Sequence record: MF402939
DNA length: 64,000 nucleotides
DNA from: Escherichia phage OSYSP
Reading direction: 5' to 3' (one strand)
Of the stretch, positions 30,919 through 58,515 are shown in pieces. The notes under the pieces are model-generated. The model was not told the origin of the DNA. It did not search any database and saw only the letters and a program-made list of their open reading frames with translations. Both the position numbers and the translations under genes were made by a program. The first letter of the stretch is position 1. Every line of letters begins with the position of its first letter.

Positions 30919-33900
30919 TTAAGAATTTCCTAGTGTTTTTAGGCTAGCACCATTCTCATTCAGAGCTAGTTCTACTGCATCCCTCAGAGCACCGCTATTA
31001 CTAGAGGCGAACTCTCTAAAACTAGCAGCATCCATAGCACTAATATTCAGGATGATAGGTCTTCCTGAGATTGAATTAGAGGAATTTTTTAACTCATCAT
31101 TAGGTGTAGCTTTCATAGGAATCATAGGTGTAATTACTTCTGTACCATGTTCTCCCATCTGGTAGCTAACCCCTGGGTACATATTACCACCTTCGGCACG
31201 AGGCACAAATGAATTAGCATTACCAATACCTTGATCACCACGTATATAGGATAGTTCCCCAGCGTTAGCAGACATAGATACATCAATGTTCTTCTGACGC
31301 TCTCCAAGAGTTAAATAACTAGTAGTATCCGCTCCAGAATCTGCAATACTTGACATACTAGAGGCAGAGGATGCCTGCGCTAATGCCAGAGCACCTGCTA
31401 ATCCTGCCGCTACCATCAGAGGGATAGAGAACGGGTATGGTACAGCTGTTGCTGCCTGCATAACTGCTACTGCAGTTTGGATGATAATCTGCTTCTTAGC
31501 TGCATCTTGTTGAATCTTCAGCTTTTCAGCTTCTAGCTTCTTCAATTTAGCTTTAGATGCTTCTGATTTACCATCACGTTTCTGCTCCGCTGCGATAGCT
31601 GCATCAATAGCACTAACCTGCTGACTAGTACTGTATTGAATCATAGAAGCCACAGTTTGCATACCAGAAGCAATCAAGGAAGTAGTATCTAGAGATCCCT
31701 GAGAGAACTGAATCATAGCATTAGTTAAGTTACCCATACTTTGTGCTACTGCAGTTGCTTCAGAATTTAGCTCAGATAGCTTAGAGATTGCTTGGTCATA
31801 AGAAGCCATTCTATTTTGCATATCAGCAAAATCTTTATCTTCTCCAGATAATCCCGTTGTAGGAGTGTACACAGCACCTACAGAGGATCCTACCTGTTGT
31901 TGCATTTGAGCATTACGTTGCGCCGTTAAAGCAGACATTTGAGCCCTTGTCTTAGCTATTTCAGCATTCCAGCGCATTTGCTCGTTAGCATTACCTTTGG
32001 TAAGTTCTTTCATCTGAGTATAAAAATCTAACTGCATTTCCATTTTTTGCATTTCCCCTGCCAGAGGGAACATGGAAGTTAGAGTATTTTCAAAGGCTTC
32101 TTGCCTTTTACTGGTCATTTCAGCTTGCTGATCCTGACGGAATTTCCATATTTCACGTTCAATTTGAGCTTGAGAACGTCTAGACTGTTCAGCCTCTTTC
32201 TGTTTATCAGCCTGTTTTGTATACCATTCGTACTTCTCTTTTTCAATGGTCAATTCAAGATTTAACTGTGCTAGACGATACTGAGTATCTGTCATAGTAC
32301 GGTTATTTAAGAGAGCTATCTCACGATCTACACCAAGAATTTTATCTGTGTAATCCTTGACCTTCTTCTGAGCTTCCATACCCTGATTAGTAAGTTTAAG
32401 TTTCTCCAGCTGAATTTTTTCAATTTCTTTCTCAACAGCTTTATTTCCCTGGTTTGTTTGAAGAACACGGCGTAAAGCAGCTTCTTGCTCTTCTAACTGT
32501 TGGAGTTCTAAACGTCTACCAGCTTCCTGAGCCTTTTCCTTATCCTTAGTTTGATTATACACATCAGCTATTTTCTGTTGAACTGCTAACTGATTTTTAG
32601 TTTCATTACCAGTTAGTTTAACATACTCAGATAGAGCCTGAGATGCAGTTTTCATTTCAGACAGGGTGTTATAACCCAGGTTAAGGTTTTTAACATATTC
32701 ATCGGCACTCTTACCGGTACCTAAGGATAGAGATTCTATATTTTTTATAGCATCTGCCAAAGTAGCACTAGTTTTAGCAGCAGTATCTGTATTATGAGCA
32801 ACGTTCTGTATATCATTAGCTAAGTCACTAGCCGTTTTCTTAGTCTGATTGTACGCTTTCTGCTGCTCAGTTAGTCCTTTTAATACAGTAGAGTTAAAAT
32901 CGTATACAGCATCAGGATCAGTAGTATCTCTCTGTAGATTAATTTGCTTCTGAAACTCTGGACTAGCCTTTGCAGCAGCGGCACCAGCAGCTTGATACGC
33001 TGATTTCCAAGCATTGAGATTCTCTGTAGAATCCTCTACTTCCTTACCAAGTCTAGTTACTTGTAGACCCATAGCTGCAGTTTCTGCTACAAATTGCTTA
33101 TTGGCCTCCGAAGCACCTGCTGCTGCAAGACCAACAGGAATACCTTCACCAACTTGACGTATAGCTAATTTTGTATAGAAATCTGCTTGTTCCATTCGTT
33201 TATCAAACTCAGATTTTAGCTTATTACGCTTATCAAGAGATTCCTTATACATATCTAGAGCTTTATTATAGCCTTCTTCAGAAGCAGCTAAACTTAAAGC
33301 AACAGCACCAACGTTGGTAGGGTCTATCTGTCTATTAGTTTTTTCTTGGGCCCTAGCTGCTTCAGCAGATATAGAAGCCTGAGATGTATAAAATACTGTG
33401 TTGATAGCATCAATTACTGGCCCTAAATACTTAGCAGCAGCTTGTTGTATTTTTCTTAGTGCAGCATCTGCATTAGCAGCAAATTGCTCCCACGGAGTTG
33501 CACGTAGTACTTCATCTAGGTAGCCAAAACGCTTAGTAGATTCAGCAATTACCGCGTTAGCGTATGCTTGTTGCTTCTGGAAAGTGGTAAGACTATTAAC
33601 ATTATATGTTATACCTGTGTTTGCAGCATTTAACTGTTTAACATAATCAGCGTATGCATCATTAAGACGGATGGTGACACCCAGCTCATCCAGAAGTTCG
33701 ATTTCTTGTTTAGATACGCCCTTAATTACACGGTTAAGTGCATCAGTCATATCAACGCCAAGAACAGCAGCCGCACGACGAGCTACTAAACCAAATTTAT
33801 TAAGTTGTTCGGCATCAAATCCATAAGCAGATGCTGAAGATGCCTGTCTCATTGCTTCCTCAAAAGAAATAGCATATCCAGCAGCTTCTTGTAGTGATCT

Positions 33901-41701: not shown

Positions 41702-42196
41702 TTAGCCTCCAGGAACAGTAGGATTAACTGTCACAGCACATGCAGTAGAATCCTTACTTACTTGCTTACTATCTGTTACAGTTACTTTATAAGAACCGGC
41801 ATCCCCAGCTGCTGCTGTAGGCTTAGTATAGGTAGCTCCTGAAGCATCCGGAATAGGAGAACCATCTTTAGTCCATGCATAAGTATATGGACCAGTACCA
41901 CCAGTTGCAGTAACAGAAAGTGTTAATGCTGCTCCCTCTTCAACTGACATGCTAGCAGTTAAATCTTTAGAAAGAGTTAACGGTGGGGCCGGTGGAGTAG
42001 GAGGAACTGCTTTACCATAAGCCTCTACAAATTTCTTCCATACTTTACGGTTAGTATGCGCAGATGAAAGCCCTAGTTCTCTACGCAGAAAAGCATAGCT
42101 AGGAACATATTTATGCGCAGCAACCGTAGCAAAGAAGATATGAGATTCTGGCAGTTTTTCACCAAAAATGGTCTTTAGACCATTATAATCAATCAT
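41702..42196 (-). CDS. Capsid decoration protein with C-terminal Ig-like domain (pb10-like, 164 aa)
   Basis: Ig-like motif (GPYTYAW ... GSYKVTVTD); size. Confidence 0.65.
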   Translation of the reverse strand: MIDYNGLKTIFGEKLPESHIFFATVAAHKYVPSYAFLRRELGLSSAHTNRKVWKKFVEAYGKAVPPTPPAPPLTLSKDLTASMSVEEGAALTLSVTATGGTGPYTYAWTKDGSPIPDASGATYTKPTAAAGDAGSYKVTVTDSKQVSKDSTACAVTVNPTVPGG

Positions 42197-43410
42197 TCTT
42201 TATCTCCCTCGGTGGAACCTTGAGGTCTACCACCTTCTTGACCAGATACACCTGTTGCAGAACCAGCAACGTTAGCAGGAATACGAATCCTATCCATCTG
42301 CTCATCATCTAAAGGTTCCAGGTTCAGCTCTAAACGAGCTTCGTTACCAGTCATAATACCATTATTAACCAATGAGGTTAAATGTTTAGCCTCAGCTTCT
42401 TTATCTGGTGTTAATGCAGCTACCTCCTTAGTATTAGGGGTAATCTTATAACCAAAAAAGAAAGTAAGAGAACTAGTCAGTTTGTTCAGCATAGGAATGA
42501 TAGTCATATAATAGAACAATTCGATGTTTGGTCGAATATTCGCATTATTACCACCATCAAGCAGTACTTGCGGAACTCCAAAGGCTAGACAAATAGATTT
42601 ATTAAATCCTTCGATGTCTTCCTTAAAGTCTAGATCTTTAAAAGAGGATATTTGGGAGTACGGTTTAGCTTTCATACCACCATCTAGAATCAGGACAGAA
42701 GACTGACCAGTACTAGGATTATAATCGAGTTGTAATTCTTCTTGTTTACGCTCACGCAATTTCTTGTTCAGGATTTCATCCGTCTCAAGAATAAGACCAA
42801 TCACGGTTCCATTATCTAGGAATTTCTCTTTAAAGTTAAGCATCTTGGAACGCTTCTCAAGAGAATCAATAACAGTAGCAACACGAGATTGTCCAGAAAT
42901 TTGAGAATTTGTGCCGCACACGTAACTGTTATCCTTTATAAAGATAATCTCATCTACGCGATAGTCTATCTGATTATTAAATATAAATTTTTTGATAAAC
43001 TTATTGGCATCTGCCTCGACCTGCATAAGAGCAGCCGGGACATGGTAAAGCGATGTGCCATCCCAATAGATGTATGCACAACCTTCAAAAAGTAGGTCAG
43101 TGACTACAAGTCTACGGAATGTGCTTATATCCATGAATGGATTAGGTCGTACATTTAAGAGAGTGTCTAGAGTCTTTGTTTTGACGCCATTAGCGTACGT
43201 AACAATATTATATTTATCTCCGACAGTATAAGAACACTCCGCCGCACTATCTATAACCATATTGGCAGTTCGATTGAGAATCTCAATCTTGCTATAGGCT
43301 TGTCCAGTGGTAAAAGGCTTACGGTTAGTGCGATGACTAACTGGTTCCATGTCTCTTATAATACGTTGACCCGGATTTAACTTTTCAGTAATCCAGCTTT
43401 TTAAACCCAT
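42193..43410 (-). CDS. Portal protein (405 aa)
   Basis: Size and position between terminase and protease. Confidence 0.75.
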   Translation of the reverse strand: MGLKSWITEKLNPGQRIIRDMEPVSHRTNRKPFTTGQAYSKIEILNRTANMVIDSAAECSYTVGDKYNIVTYANGVKTKTLDTLLNVRPNPFMDISTFRRLVVTDLLFEGCAYIYWDGTSLYHVPAALMQVEADANKFIKKFIFNNQIDYRVDEIIFIKDNSYVCGTNSQISGQSRVATVIDSLEKRSKMLNFKEKFLDNGTVIGLILETDEILNKKLRERKQEELQLDYNPSTGQSSVLILDGGMKAKPYSQISSFKDLDFKEDIEGFNKSICLAFGVPQVLLDGGNNANIRPNIELFYYMTIIPMLNKLTSSLTFFFGYKITPNTKEVAALTPDKEAEAKHLTSLVNNGIMTGNEARLELNLEPLDDEQMDRIRIPANVAGSATGVSGQEGGRPQGSTEGDKE

Positions 43411-43847
43411 TATAAGAACCTTGCGAATCCTGATTTTATTTCAGTCTTGACTTGTGTCTTTTCTTGAGGATTCTGTAATTTGTCTTTCTGCTTTTGAACC
43501 CATGCTTTCTGTTTATTAGCAGAAAATAATGGAGGTTCTTTCGTGTAAACCTTATGTAATAGTTGGTGATGGTGTACACAAAGGGTAACAGTGTCTTCTA
43601 CTAGCTCATGCCTATATCGATCATAGAATGCCGTCCTATTTGAAAGGACTGTTTCTTCGTCAGTGAAATCCAATTGGAGTTCTTTAGCAAATTTTTTAAC
43701 TAGTAGAGACACCGTATGGTAATGATGAAGCTCTAATTCTTCAGCACAACCGCAGATAGCACATTGAGAGTCTTTTTTATATTGACTTTTTATTCCGTCT
43801 CTCATAAGGGATATAGCATCGCGTTTATATTTTATATTGCTTGCCAT
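43410..43847 (-). CDS. HNH-type endonuclease / zinc-binding protein; start taken at the ATG preceded by GAGGAG
   Basis: CAICGC ... HHYH ... CVHHHQLLH motif pattern. Confidence 0.55.
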   Translation of the reverse strand: MASNIKYKRDAISLMRDGIKSQYKKDSQCAICGCAEELELHHYHTVSLLVKKFAKELQLDFTDEETVLSNRTAFYDRYRHELVEDTVTLCVHHHQLLHKVYTKEPPLFSANKQKAWVQKQKDKLQNPQEKTQVKTEIKSGFARFL

Positions 43848-43961
43848 AGTGTTCTCCTCAACTGTATGAATATAGTATACATAATCGTATCGAATTTGTA
43901 AAGGGGATTTTAAAATACAGGAATGGGATACCAACTGAGTAGTATCCCATCCTATACTTAT

Positions 43962-45278
43962 TTATTTACCACGGGAAATAGAGTAAATTCCATAGCGGAG
44001 CGCATCACAAAGGTGAGAGTTAGCATCATGACGTGGTTTTTCACGTGATAATTTCTCTTCACCTTCTTGGAAGTCCCACTTATAGTTCTGCAATGCATGA
44101 ATTAGGGAGGAACATGAGGCATCTACAATAATCTTGCCCTGCTGAAATAACGCTTGCAAACATGCTAGGCCATCTAGAACAGATTTTTTAGCTGGAGCTG
44201 ATGCAATTTCATGCTCATAAGCTAAGTCCTGGCGGAACTGAGCAGCGGCAGAGTCAACAAAAATACGATCAACTTTATAACGATCTATACAGTGCTGAAT
44301 ATAAGCAGCATGCTGAGCTGTAGTTTTCTCCACCTGCTGGTACTCTTCTAATACATAGTAAGTATCCGTATCGTAATGATATTTAATAGTAAGAACTGCT
44401 GTAGGATCACGATAACCAACGTCAATACCAAGCAACGTTTCGAATGCTTCATCATCTTTAAAGAAGTGGCGCATACCTTTGAGGTCTTTAACATGATCGA
44501 TAGCATTAAAAGTATCAAAGATCTGGCCTTCAAATACAGAGAAGTCAGCCTCGTATTCCTGGCGGAAGTAGTTTTTACTAACTGTACGACGTGCTTCCTC
44601 AATGTCATTCAAATCAGCACGTGGGTTATCACGATATGTACCATGAATAGATACCCAGTTAGGCAACGTATCATCAAATCCGTAGGCGTAAAACTCTTTA
44701 AACCAGTTACCCCCACGAGGGGTGGAAATAAATAGAGCCTTAGAATTAGGTTTATCTAGAGTAGGACGCAGCTGAACCCTGAAGGCATCACCACCCACAT
44801 CGGAAATTGCCGCCTCGTCAAAGATGATAAAATCATATGAACGTCCAACTGCGGAGTCAGCCTGAGCCGCGGAAGCTAGTTTAAATAGGGAACCATTTGC
44901 CAGTTCAATCTCTTTATCTTTAGCGTTTTCACGTTCGGTTTGTAGGCCGTACTTCTTAATAAGACCACGAATCTGAGACCACCCGATATTGGCCAGTGAG
45001 TAGTTAGGGGCAACTACTAGTACCTTCACATTAGGTTCCAGCAATTTTAGGAACCCAAGAGTATATGCGATGAAGGATTTACCTACACGGCGTGATACAC
45101 ACGCCGTTACAAAACGATGTCTAGGGTCCTCTAGAGCATTAATAATCGCTATTTGAGGGCCATTAGGTGTAATACCCTCTTGTGCTAGTATTCCCGAAAC
45201 AGGTAGACGGAAGAAACGTTTGTCTATTCCGAAATCAATAACATCTACTGTGTTAACGTAGGGTCTTGATACTTCCAT
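43962..45278 (-). CDS. Terminase large subunit (438 aa)
   Basis: Walker A-like RRVGKS near the N-terminus; size; position. Confidence 0.85.
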   Translation of the reverse strand: MEVSRPYVNTVDVIDFGIDKRFFRLPVSGILAQEGITPNGPQIAIINALEDPRHRFVTACVSRRVGKSFIAYTLGFLKLLEPNVKVLVVAPNYSLANIGWSQIRGLIKKYGLQTERENAKDKEIELANGSLFKLASAAQADSAVGRSYDFIIFDEAAISDVGGDAFRVQLRPTLDKPNSKALFISTPRGGNWFKEFYAYGFDDTLPNWVSIHGTYRDNPRADLNDIEEARRTVSKNYFRQEYEADFSVFEGQIFDTFNAIDHVKDLKGMRHFFKDDEAFETLLGIDVGYRDPTAVLTIKYHYDTDTYYVLEEYQQVEKTTAQHAAYIQHCIDRYKVDRIFVDSAAAQFRQDLAYEHEIASAPAKKSVLDGLACLQALFQQGKIIVDASCSSLIHALQNYKWDFQEGEEKLSREKPRHDANSHLCDALRYGIYSISRGK

Positions 45279-45760
45279 TACTTCTTACCTCCAGTAGCTA
45301 GGGAAGTAATTAAGTCCATGTAGTTTTGATCCCCAGCTCCAGCAATAATATTATTCTGGATGTTGGTCTGATTGGCTGGAGTACGGGCTGCTGCCTTCAC
45401 TTTCTCCAGTTCTACCATCATTTTCATTTCTTCCATCTTCATCTTGTGTGCCTTCCAGAGAATGTTCATAATATCCTGGTCAGAACCCATGCCGGTTTCT
45501 TCTAGTTCCTCCAGCTTACGCTTGATAACTTCATCCAGAACACCAAATAAACGATCCCTATTACGGAAACCACTCTCCATAAAAATATCATTTAAGTAGT
45601 TCTTAACTTCACTACGATTCATAATATCTCGGAAAGCAATTTCTGACATTCCAAGACTACGTGCGGCAGAAGGCACATCGCTGCCACACTGTAAATAAGC
45701 TTCAATCACATCCATCCCCTCAGGGGACATAAGATCTGGTACTAATACATCATTTGCCAT
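45278..45760 (-). CDS. Terminase small subunit (160 aa)
   Basis: Position immediately upstream of and coupled to the large subunit gene. Confidence 0.6.
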
Positions 45761-47910: not shown

Positions 47911-48023
47911 TTAGTATAAAGCAAAAAGACATCCAAGTAAACTAAATTTTTTATTTCTTGGACGGTATACTGGCAGAAACCACTATATAAGAAAAGTAGA
48001 AGTCCTTCTAGGAAGTCGCAAGC

Positions 48024-48215
48024 ATGGTTGGTTATGCACAAACTATAAAATATTTTAAATACCACACTTATAGGAGCATGAAAGATATGTCAAACAAAAG
48101 AAAGAGTAGGCGCGGAGAAGTGTACGATAGTTGGATTAATAGTTTTGGATTCGGAACTATCCTATTCTTTATTTTCGTAGGTTTTTGGTTAGCAGCTATG
48201 GCGGGGTGGATTTAA
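48024..48215 (+). CDS. Small membrane protein with C-terminal transmembrane helix
   Basis: ORF track; hydrophobic C-terminus (ILFFIFVGFWLAAMAGW). Confidence 0.45.
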   Translation: MVGYAQTIKYFKYHTYRSMKDMSNKRKSRRGEVYDSWINSFGFGTILFFIFVGFWLAAMAGWI

Positions 48216-48322
48216 TGGAATGGGTAATTATTGCGTTGCTAGGGATTGTGATTATTGGGCAATGTATTTTAGATAATCACTTAGCTAGAATTGAAACTTT
48301 ACTAACGGAGAAACGTAAATGA
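48215..48322 (+). CDS. Unannotated micro-ORF (about 35 aa, MEWVIIALLGIVIIGQCIL...), single transmembrane helix
   Basis: Hand translation; start overlaps the previous stop (TAATG) and its stop overlaps the next start (ATGA). Confidence 0.35.
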   Translation: MEWVIIALLGIVIIGQCILDNHLARIETLLTEKRK

Positions 48323-48513
48323 TGGAAGTAGTAGCTACACTAATAGTAATACTAGTCTGGGCAACTTTCATTGTTTCTTATAACGCGTATGTTCGCCTAA
48401 AAACTCTAGAGGCCCAGGTAAAGCAGCAACAATTTGCACTAGAAAAATTAGTAGAGCTTCAACGCTGTGATAGTACCCGTATTCTGCAAATTGAGAGGGA
48501 ATTAGATGTTTAG
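48319..48513 (+). CDS. Small membrane protein (transmembrane helix plus coiled coil)
   Basis: ORF track; hydrophobic N-terminus. Confidence 0.45.
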   Translation: MMEVVATLIVILVWATFIVSYNAYVRLKTLEAQVKQQQFALEKLVELQRCDSTRILQIERELDV

Positions 48514-48751
48514 TATTATAATTGCTTTTATTATCGGGATACTCACGGGAGTTTTCGGAATGACTGCGGCAATCAACAAGCATCGTAAATATATTGCGGA
48601 AGTATCGCGGGAGATTGCGGAAAGGGAGCGGAAGTTTGATGAGAAACGTGCGGAGTTCGAACGAGAGTGGTCGGACGGTTCTCGGGCGTCGCGGAAGAGA
48701 TTCCGTGAGTTCAGACCAGAATACAGGTTTGATGACCCTTCTATGCGCTAA
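48506..48751 (+). CDS. Small membrane protein (N-terminal transmembrane helix, charged Arg/Glu-rich tail)
   Basis: ORF track. Confidence 0.45.
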   Translation: MFSIIIAFIIGILTGVFGMTAAINKHRKYIAEVSREIAERERKFDEKRAEFEREWSDGSRASRKRFREFRPEYRFDDPSMR

Positions 48752-48854
48752 TTTGACTTTTGCCAATTTCTTTGGATTACGTACGCGTGGGTGTGTCCAG
48801 TGGCCCCCCAGATGAGAATGAGTCTCATTACCGCCTGGTACTTAGCAGGCTAAT

Positions 48855-48887
48855 AGTCCCGGCATGTTATCATTACACACCGGGACT
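48855..48887. other. Stem-loop (AGTCCCGG ... CCGGGACT) next to the ATGAGAATGAGTCTCAT and TTAGCAGGCTAA motifs
   Basis: Inverted repeat read from the sequence. Confidence 0.4.
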
Positions 48888-48903
48888 ATTTCAACTTTAA
48901 TTA

Positions 48904-49680
48904 CTACGCAACTTTTAATTTCTCAATATATTGTTGCGGGCTGCAACTATATTCTGCGCGTTCTTCTTCGGTCATACCTTCCCAACATAATTGCAGGCGG
49001 TCGGCTAGGAACTGATAATCATTATCATCCTCAAGAGATTCATCGATAAAGGTTTCACCTATCAATGTAACCCCAATCGATAGAATATCGTTAACGGCTT
49101 GTGCGTCCAGCGTTTTAAATCCGTATGATGCCGCCGCTGATAGCACGCCTTTATGATCATCAATCATCGTGAAATCAGCGTTCGGATATAATTGTTTAAA
49201 TAACTCAAAGTAATGGCTTTTATAAATAGCGTCTTTGCTGTGGTATATTTCGCTAACTTTATCAGCCTCAAAATATTTGTGTAGTGTATCGCGGGAAAAT
49301 ACACGGATATTACTATCCCCACGCCCTCGCAATCCTTGTTTACGCAAATAATAATAATCCGACTTGCTCATCAGTCGAGCGGTGCAAATAATGTTTAATG
49401 TATTTGCGTCATTCATGCACTGGCGCATATATGTAACAAGGGGCAATAAAGTATCTTGCATTATTAAATCATGTTTGCAGGCTTCATTTTTATACTTATT
49501 TAAATCTAAATTGCCCTCGCTATCAAAGCAAGGCGCTACACGATGGAAAGAATTAATGATAGTGCCGTCCAGATCCCAAATCATGACGCGGGAAATATGC
49601 GGGAAATTACGGGTAATATTCATTTTAACTTGATTCATTTTGTTACGTTCTCCATTAAAGGGATTTAGTTTATCCAGCAT
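48904..49680 (-). CDS. dmp: HAD-family 5'-deoxyribonucleotidase (Dmp-like); true start possibly at 49638
   Basis: HAD motif I (IWDLDGTI); position next to the A1-like gene. Confidence 0.6.
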   Translation of the reverse strand: MLDKLNPFNGERNKMNQVKMNITRNFPHISRVMIWDLDGTIINSFHRVAPCFDSEGNLDLNKYKNEACKHDLIMQDTLLPLVTYMRQCMNDANTLNIICTARLMSKSDYYYLRKQGLRGRGDSNIRVFSRDTLHKYFEADKVSEIYHSKDAIYKSHYFELFKQLYPNADFTMIDDHKGVLSAAASYGFKTLDAQAVNDILSIGVTLIGETFIDESLEDDNDYQFLADRLQLCWEGMTEEERAEYSCSPQQYIEKLKVA

Positions 49681-49718
49681 TGCCCGCTATTTATCAGCGG
49701 GCAATAATAAATCAACTA

Positions 49719-50111
49719 TTAAAGACCATAAGCCAACGCATCAGCGATAAAACTAATATCTTCACCTGATACGCTGGAACGAATCCCCGCACAAGTATAT
49801 ACTTTTGCGCTGATCAATTGATCATCGAGGCAAGCGGGGCAAGGCGCGACAACTGCAAAGGCTAGGCCGGATTTTACGGCGTCGATGATAATCGTTTCTT
49901 GTTTCACAGTATCAACATAAACACCTTTTGCTTTAATATGGCTGGTTAGTTTACCTTGCATATATGCAAAGGTAGTAACCTGCAAAGCGTCATTAAAATC
50001 TAATAGGTCATCAATAACGTGCCCCGCCTCGACGTGGTAACGTTCACCATTAGAATAAACCAGAACAATTGAGGACTGAGCGCGATCGAATGGAATATTT
50101 TGCTTTTTCAT
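49719..50111 (-). CDS. Hypothetical pre-early protein (130 aa)
   Basis: ORF track. Confidence 0.5.
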   Translation of the reverse strand: MKKQNIPFDRAQSSIVLVYSNGERYHVEAGHVIDDLLDFNDALQVTTFAYMQGKLTSHIKAKGVYVDTVKQETIIIDAVKSGLAFAVVAPCPACLDDQLISAKVYTCAGIRSSVSGEDISFIADALAYGL

Positions 50112-50149
50112 ATTTATAAAACTCCAATTAGTTTAATAATGGATTTAAT

Positions 50150-50407
50150 TTATTTGATAATAATCTGCATCTGGTACGGCGTTAATTCACCGTTTACGGG
50201 TAAATTATTATCGCTCAGCCACTCATAAAAAGCGTCATCGTCATCAAAAGGAACAATATCGTTATCACGGGAATCGACGGAAATAATACCATCCGTATTA
50301 GTTTTGGCGGCTAGGATAGGCCCGAAGCTGTAAACTTTATCAGATTCCATTTCATCCGGTGAAATGAATACTTTTTCGTCTAATGTTTTGGGAAGAGTAA
50401 CTTTCAT
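50150..50407 (-). CDS. Small strongly acidic protein (85 aa); DNA-mimic / anti-defence candidate
   Basis: Large excess of Asp/Glu over Lys/Arg, including a DDDD run. Confidence 0.45.
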   Translation of the reverse strand: MKVTLPKTLDEKVFISPDEMESDKVYSFGPILAAKTNTDGIISVDSRDNDIVPFDDDDAFYEWLSDNNLPVNGELTPYQMQIIIK

Positions 50408-50462
50408 TTAATTTAGCTCCTATAATAGCGGCTATATTTCAAGCCGCTAGGGTATTAATTAT

Positions 50463-52127
50463 TTACGCGAAAAATTTACCGTTTTTAAAGTCGATCAAAG
50501 TGCGCTGACCGTTTGCATAGGTAATAACATGCGTTTGCGTCCAGCTTGACGCGCCAACGTTGTAACCCATGTCCAGACTACCAGCTACGCCAGCGGTATA
50601 TACCCCGCCGTAAATGCTTGCCGTATGAGTATGCCCCGTGTTTAATTTGCCCAATTTCTTAAACTGTTTAGGATTGCCACGGCTGCCGTTAATGCCATTG
50701 TGACCGTGTACGCCGCACTCGATGCCTGCAATTTTAAATGATTGGTCAGTTGTTAGGAAAATGGCGTTAAATTCACAACCTGCAACCTTACGCAGCGCAT
50801 AATCAAGCACGTTGAAAGTATCGTCATGATCACCGATTGCCGCGTAAATTGCAGCATTTAGGCGGTGATATAGTTCCGCGTTTGCGGGATCGTCTTTAAT
50901 GTTAGCATTACGATCATCAAGCCAACGGGATAGCGCTAAATCGTGGTTTGATTCCACGATGATTGTTTGAGAAAAATCGCGCTCCATTGACTCCAGCACG
51001 CGCCCCGTATCGATGAGATCATCCAGAACCTTATCACGTCCGGCGGCGTATTGTTTTGCTAGGAATACACCCGAAGCGCGGTTGTGATGGTTGCGGGATG
51101 TAAAATCATGCACGTCATGAATAAACTGATATTTAGGCTTGAGAATATCAAGCAAGCTATTTTCGCCAGCCCATGACGCAACGGCGCAATCGTCATCTAA
51201 TTTTTCGGCGTGAATATCGCCATATTGCAAGCCTAAAACATGCCCCGATGTTTCATAACATCCGGCGGGAGTGGCGCAAATATTCAAATCGTAAAACACG
51301 CCGCTTTCGTCCATCGTTTCAAGCTGGCGAACAAAAAATTCTCCGTCTTCGTCAAACTCAACAACAAGCGCACCGAAATTATGCAGCGCCTCGGCCTTTT
51401 GTCCTGCTTTCTGCTGGATGTAATTTTTTAGGGTTGCCGTTCCAGTTGAATACATACGACGCACTACTTCACCTTTTAAAGCTGGCACGCTTTCGGCGGT
51501 AATTTTAGCGTGACCAATTGCCAGACCTTCCAGATTAAGCGCCGTTGCAGTTTCAGCGAATCCAGAAAGCGGATAATCTGCGGTTGGCAAAACGTTAATT
51601 TCAGCCATGAAAGCAAAACGGCGGTTATTTAAAAACACGTTTTTATTGCAGATATATTTGTCAAATGCGGAATCATATTTTATTCCTTCTGCACCCTCGC
51701 CATTTTGAAAACCGTTTTTGTTATAAATAAACTTGCTAACCAGCAAATCAGCGCCGATATATTTAGCAAATTGCTCCAGTGAGGCTAAAAAGTTTTTATG
51801 CGGGAAAGTATTATTCTGAATCGACGTAATAATAAAGCGTTTACCCTGCTTTACTTCCCATTGCTCAACCGTGCTAGAAACAATCCCCGCCGCTTCTGGA
51901 CGCTCATCGTTTTTAATGGCTTTTGCTACTTTCGCCGCTTTCGGTTTAGCTGGTTTATTTGCTTCCAACCAGTCGCAGATAGCGGTCGAGTGTTTTGTTG
52001 TATCGTAGACCGCTTTTGATATATCGTCGCAGACCTCCAGTTTAGTAGCGCGCAGACGTTTACCATAGAAATTAAAGTCAGCGGCCATTTTCAGGATAAC
52101 GGTTTGTTTTTCTGCGGAAATAATCAT
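50463..52127 (-). CDS. A1: A1-like pre-early protein with metallophosphoesterase domain (554 aa)
   Basis: Phosphoesterase motifs (GDIH, SNHD, GHNG, GHTH) in the C-terminal half; size close to T5 A1; adjacent to the A2-like and dmp-like genes. Confidence 0.65.
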   Translation of the reverse strand: MIISAEKQTVILKMAADFNFYGKRLRATKLEVCDDISKAVYDTTKHSTAICDWLEANKPAKPKAAKVAKAIKNDERPEAAGIVSSTVEQWEVKQGKRFIITSIQNNTFPHKNFLASLEQFAKYIGADLLVSKFIYNKNGFQNGEGAEGIKYDSAFDKYICNKNVFLNNRRFAFMAEINVLPTADYPLSGFAETATALNLEGLAIGHAKITAESVPALKGEVVRRMYSTGTATLKNYIQQKAGQKAEALHNFGALVVEFDEDGEFFVRQLETMDESGVFYDLNICATPAGCYETSGHVLGLQYGDIHAEKLDDDCAVASWAGENSLLDILKPKYQFIHDVHDFTSRNHHNRASGVFLAKQYAAGRDKVLDDLIDTGRVLESMERDFSQTIIVESNHDLALSRWLDDRNANIKDDPANAELYHRLNAAIYAAIGDHDDTFNVLDYALRKVAGCEFNAIFLTTDQSFKIAGIECGVHGHNGINGSRGNPKQFKKLGKLNTGHTHTASIYGGVYTAGVAGSLDMGYNVGASSWTQTHVITYANGQRTLIDFKNGKFFA

Positions 52128-52223
52128 ATTAATAAAACTCCATTAAAGGGATTAAAAACGTTTGTTATTGGCAAATATTGCCAAATATAACGCCTTGAAT
52201 AATAGGCGTTATAATTTGCAACA

Positions 52224-52421
52224 TTAATTTAAAGGCATAAGGCTAGAACTAACACCACAAGCAACGGCGGCAATAAAACAAATCAGACCTAAACGCTTTG
52301 CCAATTTAGACTTACGTTTAAAATAATATGAGTCTAAATCATTTTGAAAATAAGCGAATAATAACGAGGCCGCCATAATAAATAAGCCTAGAATGAGGGA
52401 TTCAGTAGGGTAAAAGATCAT
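52224..52421 (-). CDS. Small two-helix membrane protein (65 aa)
   Basis: ORF track; two hydrophobic segments. Confidence 0.4.
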   Translation of the reverse strand: MIFYPTESLILGLFIMAASLLFAYFQNDLDSYYFKRKSKLAKRLGLICFIAAVACGVSSSLMPLN

Positions 52422-52477
52422 TTTAAAACTCCAGTCAAAGGGAAATTATAGTGGGGAATATTCCCCACTAATTAAAT

Positions 52478-52885
52478 TTATTCGCCTGCGGCTTGTTTTA
52501 CTTCATCGGCAACGCCTAACAGTTGCGCCACGGCGTCCAGTGTTTCAAGTTTTGCACTTTCCAGACTTGCCAGATCATCGGCGTCTTTGATAATGCCGGA
52601 ATCAATAGCATGTTTAGCGATAACGCGTACATAGTGAGCTTTGCGGATTGAGCTACCGCCGCCAACTTTGCGCGGCTTATCGCTTTTCTGATACGCTTTC
52701 GCGCTGGTCAATTTTGACCGAACGGATACGGGAGAAGCCGCGCCCACTGCTTTTGCAATCTCTTTTAAACCGTAGCTATTTGCGAAATCTAAACCGTTTT
52801 CATTGATTAACTGCTGATACATGGAAACGGCTTTTTGGGTGTTTTCTTCATTCCAAGCAAATTTTGCGGTTTTAACGTTAGTCAT
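52478..52885 (-). CDS. A2: A2-like pre-early DNA-binding protein (135 aa)
   Basis: Size and position next to the A1-like gene; basic segment. Confidence 0.5.
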   Translation of the reverse strand: MTNVKTAKFAWNEENTQKAVSMYQQLINENGLDFANSYGLKEIAKAVGAASPVSVRSKLTSAKAYQKSDKPRKVGGGSSIRKAHYVRVIAKHAIDSGIIKDADDLASLESAKLETLDAVAQLLGVADEVKQAAGE

Positions 52886-52983
52886 GGTAAAAACTCCTAT
52901 TAGTTTAATTTAAGGGATAAGATTAACATAGTGTTAATCATTATATTCCCCATATTTCAGAGGAATATAAAGTTAACACTAAA

Positions 52984-53235
52984 TTATAACACAGCTTCCC
53001 ATTTTTCGTTACGCTGTACAACCTTTACAACGTCGCCGGATTTAACGCGAACGCTAAAAACGGTTTTGCCGTTGTTACTACGTTCATTTTCAGCGTATAC
53101 CGCGTCGATTGTATCAAACGGCATAAGCGCCGCACCTTTAATACGTTCGGCTTTTCCGGTTAGTTCATCCGTTTTAGTAACGAAAGGAATAAAAACGGAT
53201 TGACCAATTTTAGGCGCGGTAATAACGTTTTTCAT
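52984..53235 (-). CDS. Hypothetical pre-early protein (83 aa)
   Basis: ORF track. Confidence 0.45.
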   Translation of the reverse strand: MKNVITAPKIGQSVFIPFVTKTDELTGKAERIKGAALMPFDTIDAVYAENERSNNGKTVFSVRVKSGDVVKVVQRNEKWEAVL

Positions 53236-53462
53236 AATATAAACTCCTAGTTATTTGGGGATTGTTCCGCATTACCTGCTAGAAAGTAGCAGGTAATAAG
53301 CAACAATCCGCTCACCGCTATAATCAATTTAAAGAACTCCATGCAGGCCGCTATATCCCAGTTAGGGGGCGGGACACATTATGGTAAGTGCCGACCGTCA
53401 GATTTTATCAAGTTATCGCTCTTATCGAACTGAGTACATCTTAAAGCCTATCGGCTAGGTTG

Positions 53463-53666
53463 TCAAACAATTTTTTGCAGTTTTTTATAATTCTCTTTCA
53501 AGTCAATCATAATATTTCGCCAGATCATTTCTAAACCTTGCTGGCGGCCTTTCTTGTACTGCGTGAATCGGTATTTTACCGATCTTTGCGCTACTGTCAA
53601 CAAATTTTTTGTTTTGCTGTCCAGTGCCTTGCTAGGTTTACCAGTGATCAATAAAGTTTGTTTCAT
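53463..53666 (-). CDS. Small basic protein (67 aa), possibly DNA-binding
   Basis: ORF track; Lys/Arg-rich. Confidence 0.4.
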   Translation of the reverse strand: MKQTLLITGKPSKALDSKTKNLLTVAQRSVKYRFTQYKKGRQQGLEMIWRNIMIDLKENYKKLQKIV

Positions 53667-54091
53667 ATCTGCGATTCCTTATAATGTATAAGTTTACCGC
53701 CGATAGACTTTAAGATGTACCCAATTTTTAAAGAGCGCGGCGGTAAACTTCCCGCCGTGTAGTTCGTCATTGCCGCCCTACGAGATAAATAATAAGGGAT
53801 TCACAAAAATGGCGCAACCTTATTTTTGTAAAGAAACGTAAAGACAAATGCCACCGGACACCGTGCGGCGACCTGGGCGCGACGCACTAAAATTAAAAGA
53901 AACGGGCGCGCGAATACCACAAAACATAGCAGATAGGCAAGTAATTTTTTCATTTATATTTGCTTTGCCCTACTTGACAAAATCTAAAAAACTCGTGGTA
54001 GCGATAAACGAGGGTAGGCAATGCAATGGCATGGCTAAAAACTTCATCGCGTTCTAGGGCGTTTTAGGCGCATTCTAGCCTTGTTGATAAC

Positions 54092-54534
54092 TTATCCCCA
54101 GAAGCAAAAATGAAATTTTCCTAGTTATCCACTTGACTTTTATTTTCCAGTGGATAACTACTTATTTTATAAAATAAATTAATTGACTTTTATTTGTTAG
54201 TATGCGTCGGAAAGATAGCAGACTAATAATTGCTAGGATGATAATCATGCTGGTGGATTGTAACGGCTTAAATTATTAGCAGACTATTAATCACGGAAAA
54301 TCTCATTAGCCAACTAACTATTTCATGATATATAATATACTTATAAATTAAGGAGAAATAATAATTATAAGAAATAATAGCTACAGTAAATATTAACTAT
54401 AAGAAACTATCGGCCTAAGTGAGAACCACTATCATTTAAGTTATCCACAACGTTATCCACAGCACAAAATGATTTGACATAATAGGCGGTGATATAAGGA
54501 CTTTTACACAGACTTATCCACAGCTTATCCTACT
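54092..54534. promoter_or_regulatory. DnaA-box cluster in the divergent intergenic region (perfect TTATCCACA at 54441, 54453, 54514; variants at 54092, 54125, 54150 inverted, 54526)
   Basis: Direct match to the 9-mer DnaA box consensus. Confidence 0.7.
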
Positions 54535-54549
54535 GTATAAATATACAAG
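54508..54549 (+). repeat. Left arm of a 42-bp inverted repeat (ACAGACTTATCCACAG..TATCCTACTGTATAAATATACA), with DnaA box and -10-like TATAAAT
   Basis: Reverse complement of 58209-58250, identical except 2 central bases (hand-aligned). Confidence 0.8.
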
Positions 54550-54815
54550 GTAAAAAGGTAGTGTTAACAACTGCAATCAATTTTAAGCGGCCTAAAACGC
54601 TTTCTAACGAGCTAAATGCGGTGGGGTAATATTAAAGTAAAGTCTTCACCCGTCGCCCTGGTGGCTTCACTGTGTTTTGCTCTTTATTGCACCGCTGCGC
54701 GGTTAGCATAAAACTAGGCGCTAGGCAAGGAAAATAAAAAGGTAAAATAATATTTGCCCCTAGAAAGAAAATACCTTTATCATTCACTCACCGATTAACG
54801 AGGGAGGCCGAACAA

Positions 54816-55808
54816 ATGAGGCTTTATAAACCAGATAACGCAACCGTCTTAAAAGGTGCATTGCGCAACCTGCTGGATGGTAGCAGAACAACCAGCATTA
54901 AACATTTTGTTTTCAATATTGAAACACTTCATCGTAATTTTCTTGATGATTACGATGCTTATAATATGAATAGTTTTCTACCGTTATATAATCAAGGGGC
55001 AACGCTTGTTTTATATAATCAGGAATCTCACTTGCTTACTAGTCGAGGGCCAGATACTGATTTTATTATAGTGAAAGGCAGTACAGTAAAAGCCTATGAT
55101 GCGGGGGCGGGCTTAGAAGTTTTCACGATAGAAAATTATGAGCCTTATGATAAGGATCTTTATGACGTAGAAAATTTTCTCGATTCATTTTGGCGTTATT
55201 TATCAATTGGGTGGAATCGATCAGATTATCACGGGTATCGTTTTGCGGCTATAATGGCTTTTGATGATAACGGTAATTTTTTGCTACCGTCGGAATTATA
55301 CCCGTATGTATATAATGATTTAATAGAGGAGGCTGGTTTTACTTTCTGGAAAGATGAAGATCAGCCTATTGACAACACGGAAAAACATGCTGTAAATTCT
55401 AACACTCAAAGCGTTAACACTCAAACTACTGAAAATAAAGGGAAAAATACTATGACCAAGATCGCTAACATCGTTGCCGCTAATAAATCCGCTGTTGTAA
55501 ACGCTGCAAAACTGGAAGCGGGTAAAATTGCACTGACTCAAATCACGAAAGTAGCGGCTAAAAAACCGCCGTTTATTATCAAGGGTTATATTGATACGCC
55601 GATTGGTCGGGTAGTGATTGCCAACCTGCTGAGTGTAGCGGTTGACCAGTACGCCCCGAGTAACCAGAAAGCGAAAGCGGTAGCAGGAGCGGCTATGGAA
55701 GCGGCAATGCTAGAAATGGTGCAAAGTTTTAACATCGCTGAAATGATCGATGAAATGGTAAAAGGTATCGATATTTCTACTTTCACCGTTAACAACGAAA
55801 GCGAGTAA
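54816..55808 (+). CDS. Hypothetical pre-early protein (330 aa)
   Basis: ORF track; GGAGG Shine-Dalgarno upstream. Confidence 0.6.
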   Translation: MRLYKPDNATVLKGALRNLLDGSRTTSIKHFVFNIETLHRNFLDDYDAYNMNSFLPLYNQGATLVLYNQESHLLTSRGPDTDFIIVKGSTVKAYDAGAGLEVFTIENYEPYDKDLYDVENFLDSFWRYLSIGWNRSDYHGYRFAAIMAFDDNGNFLLPSELYPYVYNDLIEEAGFTFWKDEDQPIDNTEKHAVNSNTQSVNTQTTENKGKNTMTKIANIVAANKSAVVNAAKLEAGKIALTQITKVAAKKPPFIIKGYIDTPIGRVVIANLLSVAVDQYAPSNQKAKAVAGAAMEAAMLEMVQSFNIAEMIDEMVKGIDISTFTVNNESE

Positions 55809-55872
55809 TAATATTAAGCGGGGATTGTTACCCCGCTTTAATGTTCCCTTGTTAATTAATAGGAGGCTAATT

Positions 55873-56367
55873 ATGTCAGAAGAAAAATATGGCTTCTCAC
55901 TGGGAGAAGTGAGCACGGCTAAACACGATATGATCATTTTGGTCGATTGTCATACTGGCTATTGCGGAGAAGGCTGGACGGAGGAACATTTTGTTCCAGC
56001 TGGCTGTAATCTGGACGCTTTCGCTCAGGAAATGGCTGTTGATAATGCTTCTCGTTTCGGTAGCGATGGCTATGAAGACGAGGAAACTGGCGAATGGTAT
56101 GAAAATGAAAACGTATACGCTAGTCTTTATCATTATCAATTAAGTAAATCCGGCGCATATGTAAACGGCGGCGATCCTATTAATTCCATCATGAGATTAA
56201 TTATTAAACATGGTGGCGTCGAGATAATTGATAACAAAGCGGTAATATACGCAAACCGATTAAAACAGCTTGTTTATATTCCTGATAATACCCGATGGGA
56301 TGAATATGCTGTTTTGCATGACGAATTGAAACGATGTTTCAATATTGAATCCTTACAAGTAGTCTAA
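55873..56367 (+). CDS. Hypothetical acidic protein (about 164 aa, start at MSEEKYG)
   Basis: AGGAGG Shine-Dalgarno 6 nt before ATG at 55873. Confidence 0.55.
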   Translation: MSEEKYGFSLGEVSTAKHDMIILVDCHTGYCGEGWTEEHFVPAGCNLDAFAQEMAVDNASRFGSDGYEDEETGEWYENENVYASLYHYQLSKSGAYVNGGDPINSIMRLIIKHGGVEIIDNKAVIYANRLKQLVYIPDNTRWDEYAVLHDELKRCFNIESLQVV

Positions 56368-56472
56368 TGTAAAGTTTTGTAAAGGTCGCCTTTTATGGTG
56401 GCCTTTTTTGTTATAATGCTTTTACACCAAAACGGTGGATTGAAAATTTTCCCAAAAATTTGGAGGCTTAAA

Positions 56473-56703
56473 ATGGTTGCATACTCTTCTGCTAGTCATC
56501 TGTTTACCGCGCAAGGCTGGGTATCTAATCGCGTCATCATTCATGAAATGGTGCAGGAGTTCGGCATTGCTAAAACTTACACTACCATTCAGGAACTATA
56601 CAACGCCGATAAAATCGATCAGCAAACGGCTGGCTTTTTGCTGGATACCCTGAAGGCGGAACATTGCACCAAAAAACAAGCCGCTAAAATTGTTTTAATG
56701 TAA
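56473..56703 (+). CDS. Hypothetical protein (about 76 aa, start at MVAYSS)
   Basis: GGAGG Shine-Dalgarno before ATG at 56473. Confidence 0.5.
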   Translation: MVAYSSASHLFTAQGWVSNRVIIHEMVQEFGIAKTYTTIQELYNADKIDQQTAGFLLDTLKAEHCTKKQAAKIVLM

Positions 56704-56749
56704 TTAATAACGGGGCGTTATTTTCGCCCCGCTAACTAGGAGAATGAAA

Positions 56750-56899
56750 ATGGTTATTTTTCGAGCTATTCTGGCAGGTATCTTGGGCGCTATTTTATCG
56801 TTGTTTGCAATAGCTTTCGGTGTTCACGCCGTTATTGTCGGCGCGGGTATCGCCGTTTTTTCTTATCTGCTGGGCTGCATGATTAGTAAAGGAGAATAA
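56750..56899 (+). CDS. Unannotated hydrophobic micro-protein (49 aa, MVIFRAILAGILGAILSLFAIAFGVHAVIVGAGIAVFSYLLGCMISKGE)
   Basis: Hand translation; AGGAG Shine-Dalgarno; stop lies 2 nt before the next ATG. Confidence 0.5.
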   Translation: MVIFRAILAGILGAILSLFAIAFGVHAVIVGAGIAVFSYLLGCMISKGE

Positions 56900-56901
56900 A
56901 A

Positions 56902-57114
56902 ATGATCCGCAACGTTTCTCTTGCTCGTTCGAAAGGCTTTAAGCTGGTGGACGTTAACACGTTCGAGCGTGAAGATTGTAAAATCGAATATGTAGCGCGG
57001 AATAAAAACGCCTTTCGTGTTACCGAGAAAAAATTCGATAAGCGCGGCAACGTGGTCGCTGAAACGGTTAAACATTTTGCCACCTTTTACGCTGCGTTTC
57101 GTGGGGTACTATGA
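56902..57114 (+). CDS. Hypothetical basic protein (70 aa)
   Basis: ORF track. Confidence 0.5.
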   Translation: MIRNVSLARSKGFKLVDVNTFEREDCKIEYVARNKNAFRVTEKKFDKRGNVVAETVKHFATFYAAFRGVL

Positions 57115-57236: not shown

Positions 57237-57237
57237 A

Positions 57238-57737: not shown

Positions 57738-57756
57738 TTAATAACGGAGCGTTATT

Positions 57757-57951: not shown

Positions 57952-57992
57952 TAATCACGGGGCGCAACTACCAGGGAGTGCCCCCAATTCTC

Positions 57993-58510: not shown

Positions 58511-58515
58511 AAGTC

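What the first reader, a model, noticed from the sequence alone, without database searches (positions are those of the whole stretch)
43410..43847. HNH-type nuclease between portal and terminase genes
The product carries Cys pairs and His-rich motifs (CAICGC, HHYH, CVHHHQLLH) typical of HNH endonucleases. HNH proteins next to terminase genes are packaging cofactors in some phages and homing endonucleases in others; the position makes either plausible.
Basis: partly seen in the sequence, partly recalled or inferred. Interest (0 to 1): 0.35.

Follow-up and report, generated by a model that had tools for sequence, protein, structure and literature searches.

The report
T5-type SciA genome-nicking endonuclease gene
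This small gene between the terminase and portal genes of a T5-like phage is the already known SciA enzyme, which makes the site-specific single-strand nicks typical of T5 DNA, so the finding is real but ordinary.

Summary
The ORF at 43410..43847 (minus strand, 145 aa) is real, and the quoted Cys/His motifs are present. It is the orthologue of phage T5 gene T5.153 (T5p149/ORF142), with 83% amino-acid identity. That protein is SciA, the site-specific nicking endonuclease. Two crystal structures exist: PDB 9QGV and 9QGX, 'SciA(H42Q/H42A) endonuclease from Escherichia phage T5 in complex with 10 bp DNA (GCGC sequence)', released 2026-03-25.

An AlphaFold model of the window protein superposes on 9QGV at TM 0.98 and rmsd 0.7 Å.

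The gene sits between TerL and portal in 897 of 899 matching phage records, including distant Vibrio T5-like phages. It is therefore a core gene, not a mobile homing endonuclease. The mobile element at this locus is a different gene, T5.154, a T5orf172/GIY-YIG-like protein. It lies next to sciA in T5 and is absent here.

Two of T5's mapped major nick sites (R/GCGCRGG) occur as exact 22-mers on the minus strand of the window.

The HNH assignment is only loosely supported by sequence. Pfam gives no significant hit, and the two halves of the motif are separated by a roughly 40-residue helical insert.

Verdict: already known, low interest. Neither of its two proposed roles is the documented one.

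The parts
43410..43847 (-). sciA coding sequence (145 aa): site-specific nicking endonuclease and orthologue of T5.153/T5p149. Candidate Zn ligands are C29, C32, C90 and H93. H42 is the catalytic His. H41, H94 and H98 are candidate metal ligands. The helical insert spans about residues 46-84. The C-terminal tail from about residue 126 has low model confidence.
43848..43961 (-). TerL-sciA intergenic region (114 nt). It holds a terminator-like hairpin at 43952..43921, a promoter-like TTTACA-17-TATACT at 43902..43874, and the GAGGAG ribosome-binding site. In T5 this position carries the extra gene T5.154.
   Evidence: the BF23 record annotates a promoter here, 'absent in T5 phage'; T5 layout
42193..43410 (-). 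Portal protein gene. Its ATG overlaps the sciA stop codon (TAATG).
43962..45278 (-). Terminase large subunit gene.
45278..45760 (-). Terminase small subunit gene. Its orthologue is annotated 'probable sciB protein, involved in formation of single-chain interruptions in T5 DNA'.
18827..18848 (-). Predicted SciA target. It is an exact 22-mer copy of the T5 major single-chain interruption at T5 78573/78574 (the 64.8% nick, inside the D13 gene): GGTCGGTGG/GCGCGGGCAAAT. The predicted nick lies between 18839 and 18838 on the minus strand.
58524..58545 (-). Predicted SciA target. It is an exact 22-mer copy of the T5 major single-chain interruption at T5 9748/9749 (the 7.9%/99.6% nick, inside the injection-stop-signal region of the terminal repeat): GCACAAAA/GCGCAGGGCAAT. 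The predicted nick lies between 58536 and 58535 on the minus strand.
31374..31381 (-). A further minus-strand match to R/GCGCRGG (A/GCGCAGG). It is a candidate additional or minor nick site and was not verified.

Best explanation
The gene encodes SciA, the late-expressed site-specific nicking endonuclease of T5-like phages (Demerecviridae).

SciA is a small enzyme with a His-Me-finger-like active site. A CxxC...CxxH zinc site (C29, C32, C90, H93) holds together a beta-hairpin and a helix. H42, at the end of the first strand, is the catalytic histidine. H94 and H98 on the helix, and possibly H41, hold the catalytic metal. A helical insert of about 40 residues separates the two strands. That insert, together with the conserved basic and aromatic residues R16, K20, Y23, R71, Q113 and W116, presumably reads the DNA.

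The enzyme binds duplex DNA at GCGC-containing sites and cuts one strand 5' of GCGC. The consensus at the major sites is R/GCGCRGG. Cutting leaves the fixed single-strand interruptions found in one strand of virion DNA. Two such sites lie in this window, at 18838/18839 and 58535/58536 on the minus strand.

Shown here: orthology to T5 SciA, identity of fold with the solved DNA complex, conservation of the active-site residues, conserved synteny, and conservation of two mapped T5 nick sites. Taken from database records and literature: that SciA is the nicking enzyme, that sciB corresponds to TerS, that nicks are made before encapsidation, and that nick-less mutants are viable. Inferred: the residue roles other than H42, and actual nicking at these two sites in this particular phage.
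For: A profile of 52 family members hits only PDB 9qgv_A and 9qgx_A, named 'Nicking endonuclease', at E 9e-62 over the full length. The two chains differ at H42, which is Q in one and A in the other.

The AlphaFold2 model (pLDDT 88.5) matches 9qgv_A, 'SciA(H42Q) endonuclease from Escherichia phage T5 in complex with 10 bp DNA (GCGC sequence 2)'. The match has Foldseek E 5e-18, TM 0.98 normalised to the target, rmsd 0.7 Å and 82% identity.

The window protein is 83% identical to T5.153 without gaps, E 5e-95. GenBank records name the orthologue 'sciA: nicking site-specific endonuclease' (DT571/2) or 'nicking endonuclease' (BF23). UniRef also names it 'Nicking endonuclease'. PMC10194208 describes the same gene order and the same name.

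The TerL-sciA-portal order is kept in Vibrio phage River4, which belongs to a different subfamily. 897 of 899 matching records carry at least 80% of the protein.

All four distinct T5 nick sites annotated in AY543070 read R/GCGCRGG on the minus strand. Two of them are exact 22-mers in the window on the same strand.

PMC3517423 gives the consensus R/GCGCRGG, the mapping of sciA and sciB to the late region, and the existence of viable nick-less mutants. bioRxiv 10.64898/2026.01.13.699316, citing Davison 2015, states that the nicks are introduced prior to encapsidation.
Against: No primary paper on the SciA structure or biochemistry is in the searchable library. The functional assignment therefore rests on PDB entry titles, database names and older genetics as cited by others.

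Nicking by this particular orthologue, which is 17% diverged from T5 SciA, has not been demonstrated.

The motif RGCGCRGG also occurs twice on the plus strand of the window. Five matches in total are not significantly more than chance: 9 of 100 shuffles reach 5. The short motif alone therefore does not explain strand or site choice.

Sequence profiles do not place the family in Pfam HNH.
Confidence: 0.95

Rival explanations
1. The protein is a terminase-associated HNH packaging cofactor of the HK97 gp74 type. It would stimulate terminase cleavage of concatemers and be needed for DNA packaging.
For: The gene lies inside the packaging module, between TerL and portal, and is translationally coupled to portal. 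The other nicking gene, sciB, is annotated as the small terminase subunit. PMC3592412 notes that many phages carry an HNH next to the terminase genes (abstract).
Against: There is no Pfam HNH hit. The gene order differs: here it is TerL-gene-portal, not HNH-cos-TerS. From my own knowledge, T5 packages genomes with long direct terminal repeats, not cos ends. Nick-less sci mutants are viable (PMC3517423), which a required packaging cofactor would not allow. In Klebsiella phage pKMKP103 the gene appears disrupted in a deposited genome of an isolated phage. The solved complexes are with GCGC nick-site DNA.
Confidence: 0.03
2. The gene is a free-standing homing endonuclease that has inserted between the portal and terminase genes and spreads by cutting genomes that lack it.
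For: It is small, has an HNH-like motif, and sits in an intergenic-like position in a phage family rich in homing endonucleases. A distant relative, P0261, fuses a SciA-like domain to the CapR and treble-clef DNA-binding modules typical of such endonucleases.
Against: The gene is present at the same locus in 897 of 899 records across at least three subfamilies (Markadamsvirinae, Ermolyevavirinae, Sugarlandvirus). Its sequence divergence roughly follows the taxonomy: 97-100% identity in the closest relatives, 80-91% in other Tequintavirus-type phages, 70% in Klebsiella phages and 47-50% in Vibrio phages. The patchily distributed gene at this locus is the neighbour T5.154 (T5orf172/MUG113 GIY-YIG-like). 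T5.154 is found at 80% identity or more in about 80 records, has a remnant in DT571/2, and is absent here.
Confidence: 0.01

Closest known systems
SciA nicking endonuclease of Escherichia phage T5 (T5.153 / T5p149 / ORF142; PDB 9QGV, 9QGX)
   Same: 83% identical over all 145 residues, and the same length. All invariant Cys, His and basic residues are shared. The predicted fold superposes at 0.7 Å. The position between TerL and portal is the same, and the same target sequences are present in the genome.
   Different: 24 substitutions separate the two proteins, including several in the helical insert (residues 46-84) and next to the zinc site (G33 S34 in T5, against G33 C34 here). In T5 a T5orf172-type endonuclease gene (T5.154) separates sciA from TerL. 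Here a 114-nt spacer with a terminator-like hairpin and a promoter-like site takes its place.
HNH / His-Me finger endonucleases (Pfam PF01844 and relatives)
   Same: The motif order is CxxC ... HH ... CxxH-H...H, with the His pair at the end of a strand and the last His residues on a helix. There are weak PHROG HNH matches (phrog_8048, E 7e-6). Weak BFVD fold matches are dominated by HNH, HNHc, NinG and endonuclease VII proteins.
   Different: A helical module of about 40 residues is inserted between the two strands. No conserved Asn is found. No Pfam HNH model reaches threshold, even after the insert is deleted in silico. There is no hhalign similarity to T5 HegF.
Terminase-associated HNH proteins of cos phages (HK97 gp74 type; PMC3592412)
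   Same: A small Cys/His nuclease encoded next to the terminase genes.
   Different: The position in the module is different, the family is not detectable as the same, the packaging strategy is different, and the documented activity is nicking at internal GCGC sites rather than assisting end formation.
Nicking systems of other phages with localized interruptions (Pseudomonas phages tf and phiKMV-like; PMC3517423)
   Same: Site-specific nicks in one strand of virion DNA at a short consensus, with unknown biological purpose.
   Different: The consensus sequences differ (TACTGTGAC for tf; CGACxxxxxCCTA/CTCCGG for phiKMV-likes). I did not test whether their enzymes are homologous. The SciA family as found here is small, and the members that carry a name or were traced to a genome are T5-like phages.

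Membership tests
SciA nicking endonuclease family (T5 SciA; precomputed Pfam accession PF26848) | Full-length sequence homology to T5 SciA | tested here: met
   BLASTP against T5.153 gives 83% identity, E 5e-95 and no gaps. The family profile against PDB SciA chains gives E 9e-62. Every homologue returned carries PF26848. That model is not in the local Pfam copy, so its name could not be read.
SciA nicking endonuclease family (T5 SciA; precomputed Pfam accession PF26848) | Same three-dimensional fold as the solved SciA-DNA complexes | tested here: met
   The AF2 model (pLDDT 88.5) against 9qgv_A gives TM 0.98 (target-normalised) and rmsd 0.7 Å over 119 columns. Against 9qgx_A it gives TM 0.97.
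SciA nicking endonuclease family (T5 SciA; precomputed Pfam accession PF26848) | Catalytic His42 and the Cys/His metal ligands conserved | tested here: met
   C29, C32, H41, H42, C90, H94 and H98 are invariant in 52 sequences, and H93 is at least 90% conserved. H42 is the residue mutated to Q or A in the crystallised proteins.
SciA nicking endonuclease family (T5 SciA; precomputed Pfam accession PF26848) | [quoted passage not shown] | tested here: met
   Seen in the window, BF23, T5, DT571/2, Vibrio phage River4 and Klebsiella phage pKMKP103.
SciA nicking endonuclease family (T5 SciA; precomputed Pfam accession PF26848) | Cognate nick-site sequences (R/GCGCRGG in one strand) present in the genome | tested here: met
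   Exact 22-mer copies of two mapped T5 major nick sites lie on the minus strand, at 18827..18848 and 58524..58545.
SciA nicking endonuclease family (T5 SciA; precomputed Pfam accession PF26848) | Strand-specific nicking activity in vivo or in vitro | not testable with these tools
   This needs virion DNA analysis or an enzyme assay.
HNH / His-Me finger endonucleases | Significant match to an HNH sequence profile | tested here: not met
   Pfam gives no family at E<=1, and NCBIfam gives none. Ten of 52 members match AI2M-like_HNH at best E 0.051, and two match PF01844 at 0.027. Distant members reach 16-18 bits on PF01844 against a cut-off of 21.4. Insert-deleted constructs give no HNH hit apart from one at E 0.017 to HNHc_6. 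The only support is the PHROG HNH family phrog_8048 at E 7e-6.
HNH / His-Me finger endonucleases | Beta-beta-alpha-metal core, with the catalytic His at the end of strand 1 and a metal-binding His on the helix | tested here: inconclusive
   The model has strand 38-42 (ELHHY), strand 86-90 (TVTLC) and helix 91-101 (VHHHQLLHKVY), with helices 46-84 inserted between the strands. Weak BFVD matches are mostly HNH proteins, the best at E 0.015. In the PDB library nothing but SciA itself passes E 0.001. Coordinates could not be inspected.
HNH / His-Me finger endonucleases | Conserved Asn between the two His residues | tested here: not met
   N70 of the window protein aligns with M in most Vibrio-phage homologues. 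No Asn column is invariant or nearly invariant.
Terminase-associated HNH packaging cofactors (HK97 gp74 type) | HNH (PF01844-type) protein encoded next to cos and TerS in a cos-packaging phage | tested here: not met
   There is no PF01844 hit. The gene lies downstream of TerL and upstream of portal. The T5 records annotate 10-kb direct terminal repeats rather than cos ends.
Terminase-associated HNH packaging cofactors (HK97 gp74 type) | Stimulates terminase-mediated end cleavage and is required for packaging | not testable with these tools
   Indirect evidence is against it: nick-less mutants are viable (PMC3517423).
Free-standing homing endonuclease genes | Sporadic presence or absence among close relatives at an otherwise conserved locus | tested here: not met
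   897 of 899 records carry the gene at 80% coverage or more. The neighbouring T5.154-type gene does show this patchy pattern.

The most novel reading that the evidence does not exclude
SciA may not act alone. It could be recruited by the small terminase subunit (the presumed sciB product, encoded two genes upstream), so that nicking is physically coupled to DNA packaging. Strand choice and the preference for a few 'major' GCGC sites would then come from the direction in which the packaging machinery travels, not from sequence alone. That would explain why the short motif RGCGCRGG also occurs un-nicked on the other strand, including a positionally conserved copy about 320 nt from the injection-stop-signal nick in both T5 and this phage.
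Probability: 0.2. Interest if true: 0.45.

Novelty: already known. Interest (0 to 1): 0.08.

Why it matters
It matters little as a discovery. The gene, its name, its target motif and its crystal structure are all already in public databases. The practical value is in annotation. Many T5-like genomes, including the closest relative VSe12, still label this gene 'hypothetical protein'. It should be called SciA nicking endonuclease, not homing endonuclease or packaging HNH. The biological purpose of the T5 nicks remains an old open question (PMC3517423). This window holds the enzyme, its presumed partner TerS/sciB and two cognate sites together, but it adds no new handle on that question.

Tried and rejected
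Searches and tests that found nothing or no support:
- Pfam-A and NCBIfam scans of the protein gave no hit.
- A Pfam scan of all 52 aligned members gave only faint HNH matches.
- I deleted the helical insert (residues 48-79) in seven family members to bring the two halves of the putative HNH motif together, then rescanned Pfam. There was still no significant HNH match. The 'split HNH' idea therefore has no sequence-profile support.
- hhalign of the family profile against T5's own HNH homing endonuclease HegF (F-TflVI) gave probability 0.3%, so no relationship was found.
- Foldseek against PDB gave nothing significant apart from SciA itself. The Cap5 HNH effectors appear only at E about 3.
- The motif RGCGCRGG gives 5 matches in the window, 3 on the minus strand and 2 on the plus strand. 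This is not more than chance, since 9 of 100 shuffles reach 5. GCGC itself is only mildly under-represented, observed/expected 0.83, in the same range as other GC-rich palindromic tetramers. Motif counts therefore prove nothing on their own. The evidence for the sites is the exact identity to mapped T5 sites.
- Literature searches for the PDB codes and for 'SciA' found no primary paper. Davison 2015 (PMC4743489) and Zivanovic 2014 (DOI 10.1128/JVI.02262-13) are not held.

Rejected interpretations:
- Homing endonuclease, rejected because of the gene's distribution.
- gp74-type packaging cofactor, rejected because of position, lack of homology and the viability of nick-less mutants.
- The longer TTG start at 43934.

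Full report
OBSERVATION

It runs from 43410 to 43847 on the minus strand and encodes 145 aa. The ATG at 43847 is preceded by GAGGAG-N6. The TAA stop overlaps the portal ATG as TAATG. The quoted motifs are real: C29-AI-C32-G-C34, H41-H42-Y-H44 and C90-V-HH93-H94-QLL-H98. The flanking genes are portal (PF04860, E 9e-51) and the terminase large subunit, followed by the small subunit. The window is a T5-like phage (Tequintavirus). The region is 98.4% identical to Salmonella phage VSe12 and 97.7% identical to BF23.

IDENTITY

A profile built from 52 homologues (alignment A1) was searched against all PDB sequences. It hit only two chains, 9qgv_A and 9qgx_A, both named 'Nicking endonuclease'. The hits had E 9e-62 over the full length. 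The two chains differ at residue 42, which is H-to-Q in one and H-to-A in the other.

An AlphaFold2 model of the window protein has mean pLDDT 88.5 and pTM 0.76. In Foldseek it matches 9qgv_A, titled 'SciA(H42Q) endonuclease from Escherichia phage T5 in complex with 10 bp DNA (GCGC sequence 2)' and released 2026-03-25. The match has TM 0.98 normalised to the target, rmsd 0.7 Å and 82% identity. It matches 9qgx_A (H42A, GCGC sequence 1) about as well.

The window protein is 83% identical to T5.153 without gaps. GenBank records call the orthologue 'sciA: nicking site-specific endonuclease' (DT571/2) or 'nicking endonuclease' (BF23). PMC10194208 describes the same order: nicking endonuclease, then TerL, then TerS. 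The gene is therefore the known SciA.

TARGET SITES

The T5 record AY543070 annotates four distinct major single-chain interruptions on the minus strand. I did not look at the copy of the first site expected in the right terminal repeat. Extracting the four sites gives:
- ...ACAAAA/GCGCAGGGCAAT
- ...AGGAGA/GCGCAGGGGGAA
- ...TGGAGA/GCGCAGGGCTTT
- ...CGGTGG/GCGCGGGCAAAT

This is R/GCGCRGG, the consensus quoted in PMC3517423.

Two of these sites are exact 22-mers in the window, on the same strand. One is at 18827..18848, inside the D13 homologue. The other is at 58524..58545, in the injection-stop-signal region of the terminal repeat. The window thus holds the enzyme and two of its mapped substrates.

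The short motif by itself is not informative. It gives five matches, three on the minus strand and two on the plus strand, and 9 of 100 shuffles do as well. GCGC is only mildly depleted, at 0.83 of expectation. PMC3517423 already noted that the motif also occurs on the un-nicked strand of T5, so further determinants must exist.

IS IT MOBILE?

tblastn finds the protein in 899 phage records, and 897 of them cover at least 80% of its length. The records include phages of Salmonella, Escherichia, Klebsiella (about 70% identity), Proteus (65%), Aeromonas, Providencia and 356 Vibrio phages (46-50%). In Vibrio phage River4 (Ermolyevavirinae) the order TerL-homologue-portal is kept. SciA is therefore a core gene of the Demerecviridae, not an insertion.

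T5 has an extra 277-aa gene, T5.154, between sciA and TerL. T5.154 carries T5orf172/MUG113, treble-clef zinc-finger and CapR domains. It occurs at 80% identity or more in only about 80 records, always next to the 'nicking endonuclease'. DT571/2 keeps a remnant of it, and Sugarlandvirus has a diverged copy.

In this window that position is a 114-nt spacer. It has a terminator-like hairpin just after TerL and a promoter-like TTTACA-17-TATACT. This matches the promoter that the BF23 record annotates as 'absent in T5 phage'.

IS IT AN HNH?

The evidence here is mixed and should be stated as such.

In favour:
- The motif order is CxxC...HH...CxxH-H...H, and all of these positions are invariant or nearly so.
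- The model shows strand 38-42, strand 86-90 and helix 91-101 carrying these residues.
- The PHROG HNH family phrog_8048 matches at E 7e-6.
- BFVD fold matches below the orthologues are mostly HNH, HNHc, NinG or endonuclease VII proteins, the best at E 0.015.
- H42 is the residue the crystallographers inactivated.

Against:
- Pfam and NCBIfam give nothing.
- Family members and distant relatives give only sub-threshold PF01844 fragments, covering either the first or the second half of the model.
- Removing the 32-residue core of the insert in silico does not rescue a match.
- hhalign sees no similarity to T5's HNH homing endonuclease HegF.
- There is no conserved Asn.

My reading is that SciA is a divergent His-Me finger with a helical insert of about 40 residues between the two strands. 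The homologues carry a precomputed Pfam accession of their own, PF26848, which is not in the local library.

MECHANISM

From general knowledge of His-Me finger chemistry, the His at the end of strand 1 (H42) activates the water. His residues on the helix (H94, H98), perhaps with H41, hold the catalytic metal. C29, C32, C90 and H93 (Asp in some homologues) hold a structural zinc. These residue roles are inferred, except H42, which is supported by the mutant constructs.

The T5 record's notes on three of the annotated sites describe the nick consensus as 5'-NPu pGCGCN-3'. That implies a 5'-phosphate on GCGC.

Two genes, sciA and sciB, were mapped to the late region, and nick-less mutants are viable (PMC3517423). 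AY692264 labels the protein now recognised as TerS 'probable sciB protein'. According to Davison 2015, as cited in bioRxiv 10.64898/2026.01.13.699316, the nicks are introduced before encapsidation. The purpose of the nicks is still unknown.

RIVALS

A gp74-type packaging cofactor is unlikely. The position is different, there is no homology, T5 uses direct terminal repeats, and nick-less mutants are viable. A homing endonuclease is excluded by the distribution.

VERDICT

The gene is the already known SciA nicking endonuclease, so interest is low. No primary paper on the structure could be found in the library, so the functional statements rest on PDB titles, database annotation and secondary citations.

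Noticed in passing
window 43848..43961; L002 (T5) 5774..6607: T5 carries an extra 277-aa gene, T5.154 (T5orf172/MUG113 GIY-YIG-like, treble-clef zinc finger and CapR domains), between sciA and TerL. It is absent here and replaced by a 114-nt spacer with a terminator-like hairpin and a promoter-like site. The gene is patchily distributed, at 80% identity or more in about 80 records, with a remnant in DT571/2. That pattern fits a homing endonuclease gene.
   Followed up: yes
L010 (Klebsiella phage pKMKP103, OR426634) about 2995..3409: The sciA orthologue looks like a pseudogene. The N-terminal part (VAANVKYKRD...CAICGSAEN) and the C-terminal part (EVVLSNRDKFY...) are in different frames, and residues of about 37-64, including the catalytic HH strand, are missing. 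It sits right next to an inserted T5.154-like endonuclease gene. It may be a natural nick-less phage or an assembly error.
   Followed up: partly
window 58857..58864 (+) and L007 (T5) 1571..1578 (+): A plus-strand copy of the nick motif (GGCGCAGG) lies about 320 nt from the injection-stop-signal nick site in both this phage and T5. The T5 record annotates nicks only on the minus strand. The position is conserved, although the flanking 28-mer is not identical. A second plus-strand copy is at window 56840..56847.
   Followed up: partly
window 31374..31381 (-): A third minus-strand match to R/GCGCRGG (GCATTA/GCGCAGGCATCC). It does not correspond to any of the annotated T5 major nicks and is a candidate minor nick site.
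   Followed up: no
protein P0261 (335 aa, from the representative library): A distant relative has CapR and treble-clef zinc-finger modules, the same DNA-binding modules as T5.154, fused to a C-terminal SciA-like domain (residues 220-312, E 9e-5). This hints that the SciA nuclease domain also occurs in homing-endonuclease-like architectures.
   Followed up: partly
window about 48000..60200: GCGC sites are much denser here (56 of the 88 in the window) than in the late-gene region. This stretch corresponds to the pre-early/terminal-repeat region of T5, since the injection-stop-signal nick site is at 58.5 kb. The window continues beyond it, so the terminal repeat may be collapsed or the assembly permuted.
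   Followed up: no
protein P0114: A 117-aa NCBI entry named 'PhoH family protein, partial [Enterococcus faecalis]' is 78% identical to the N-terminal 41% of SciA. It is most likely a chimeric or contaminated contig carrying T5-like phage sequence.
   Followed up: no
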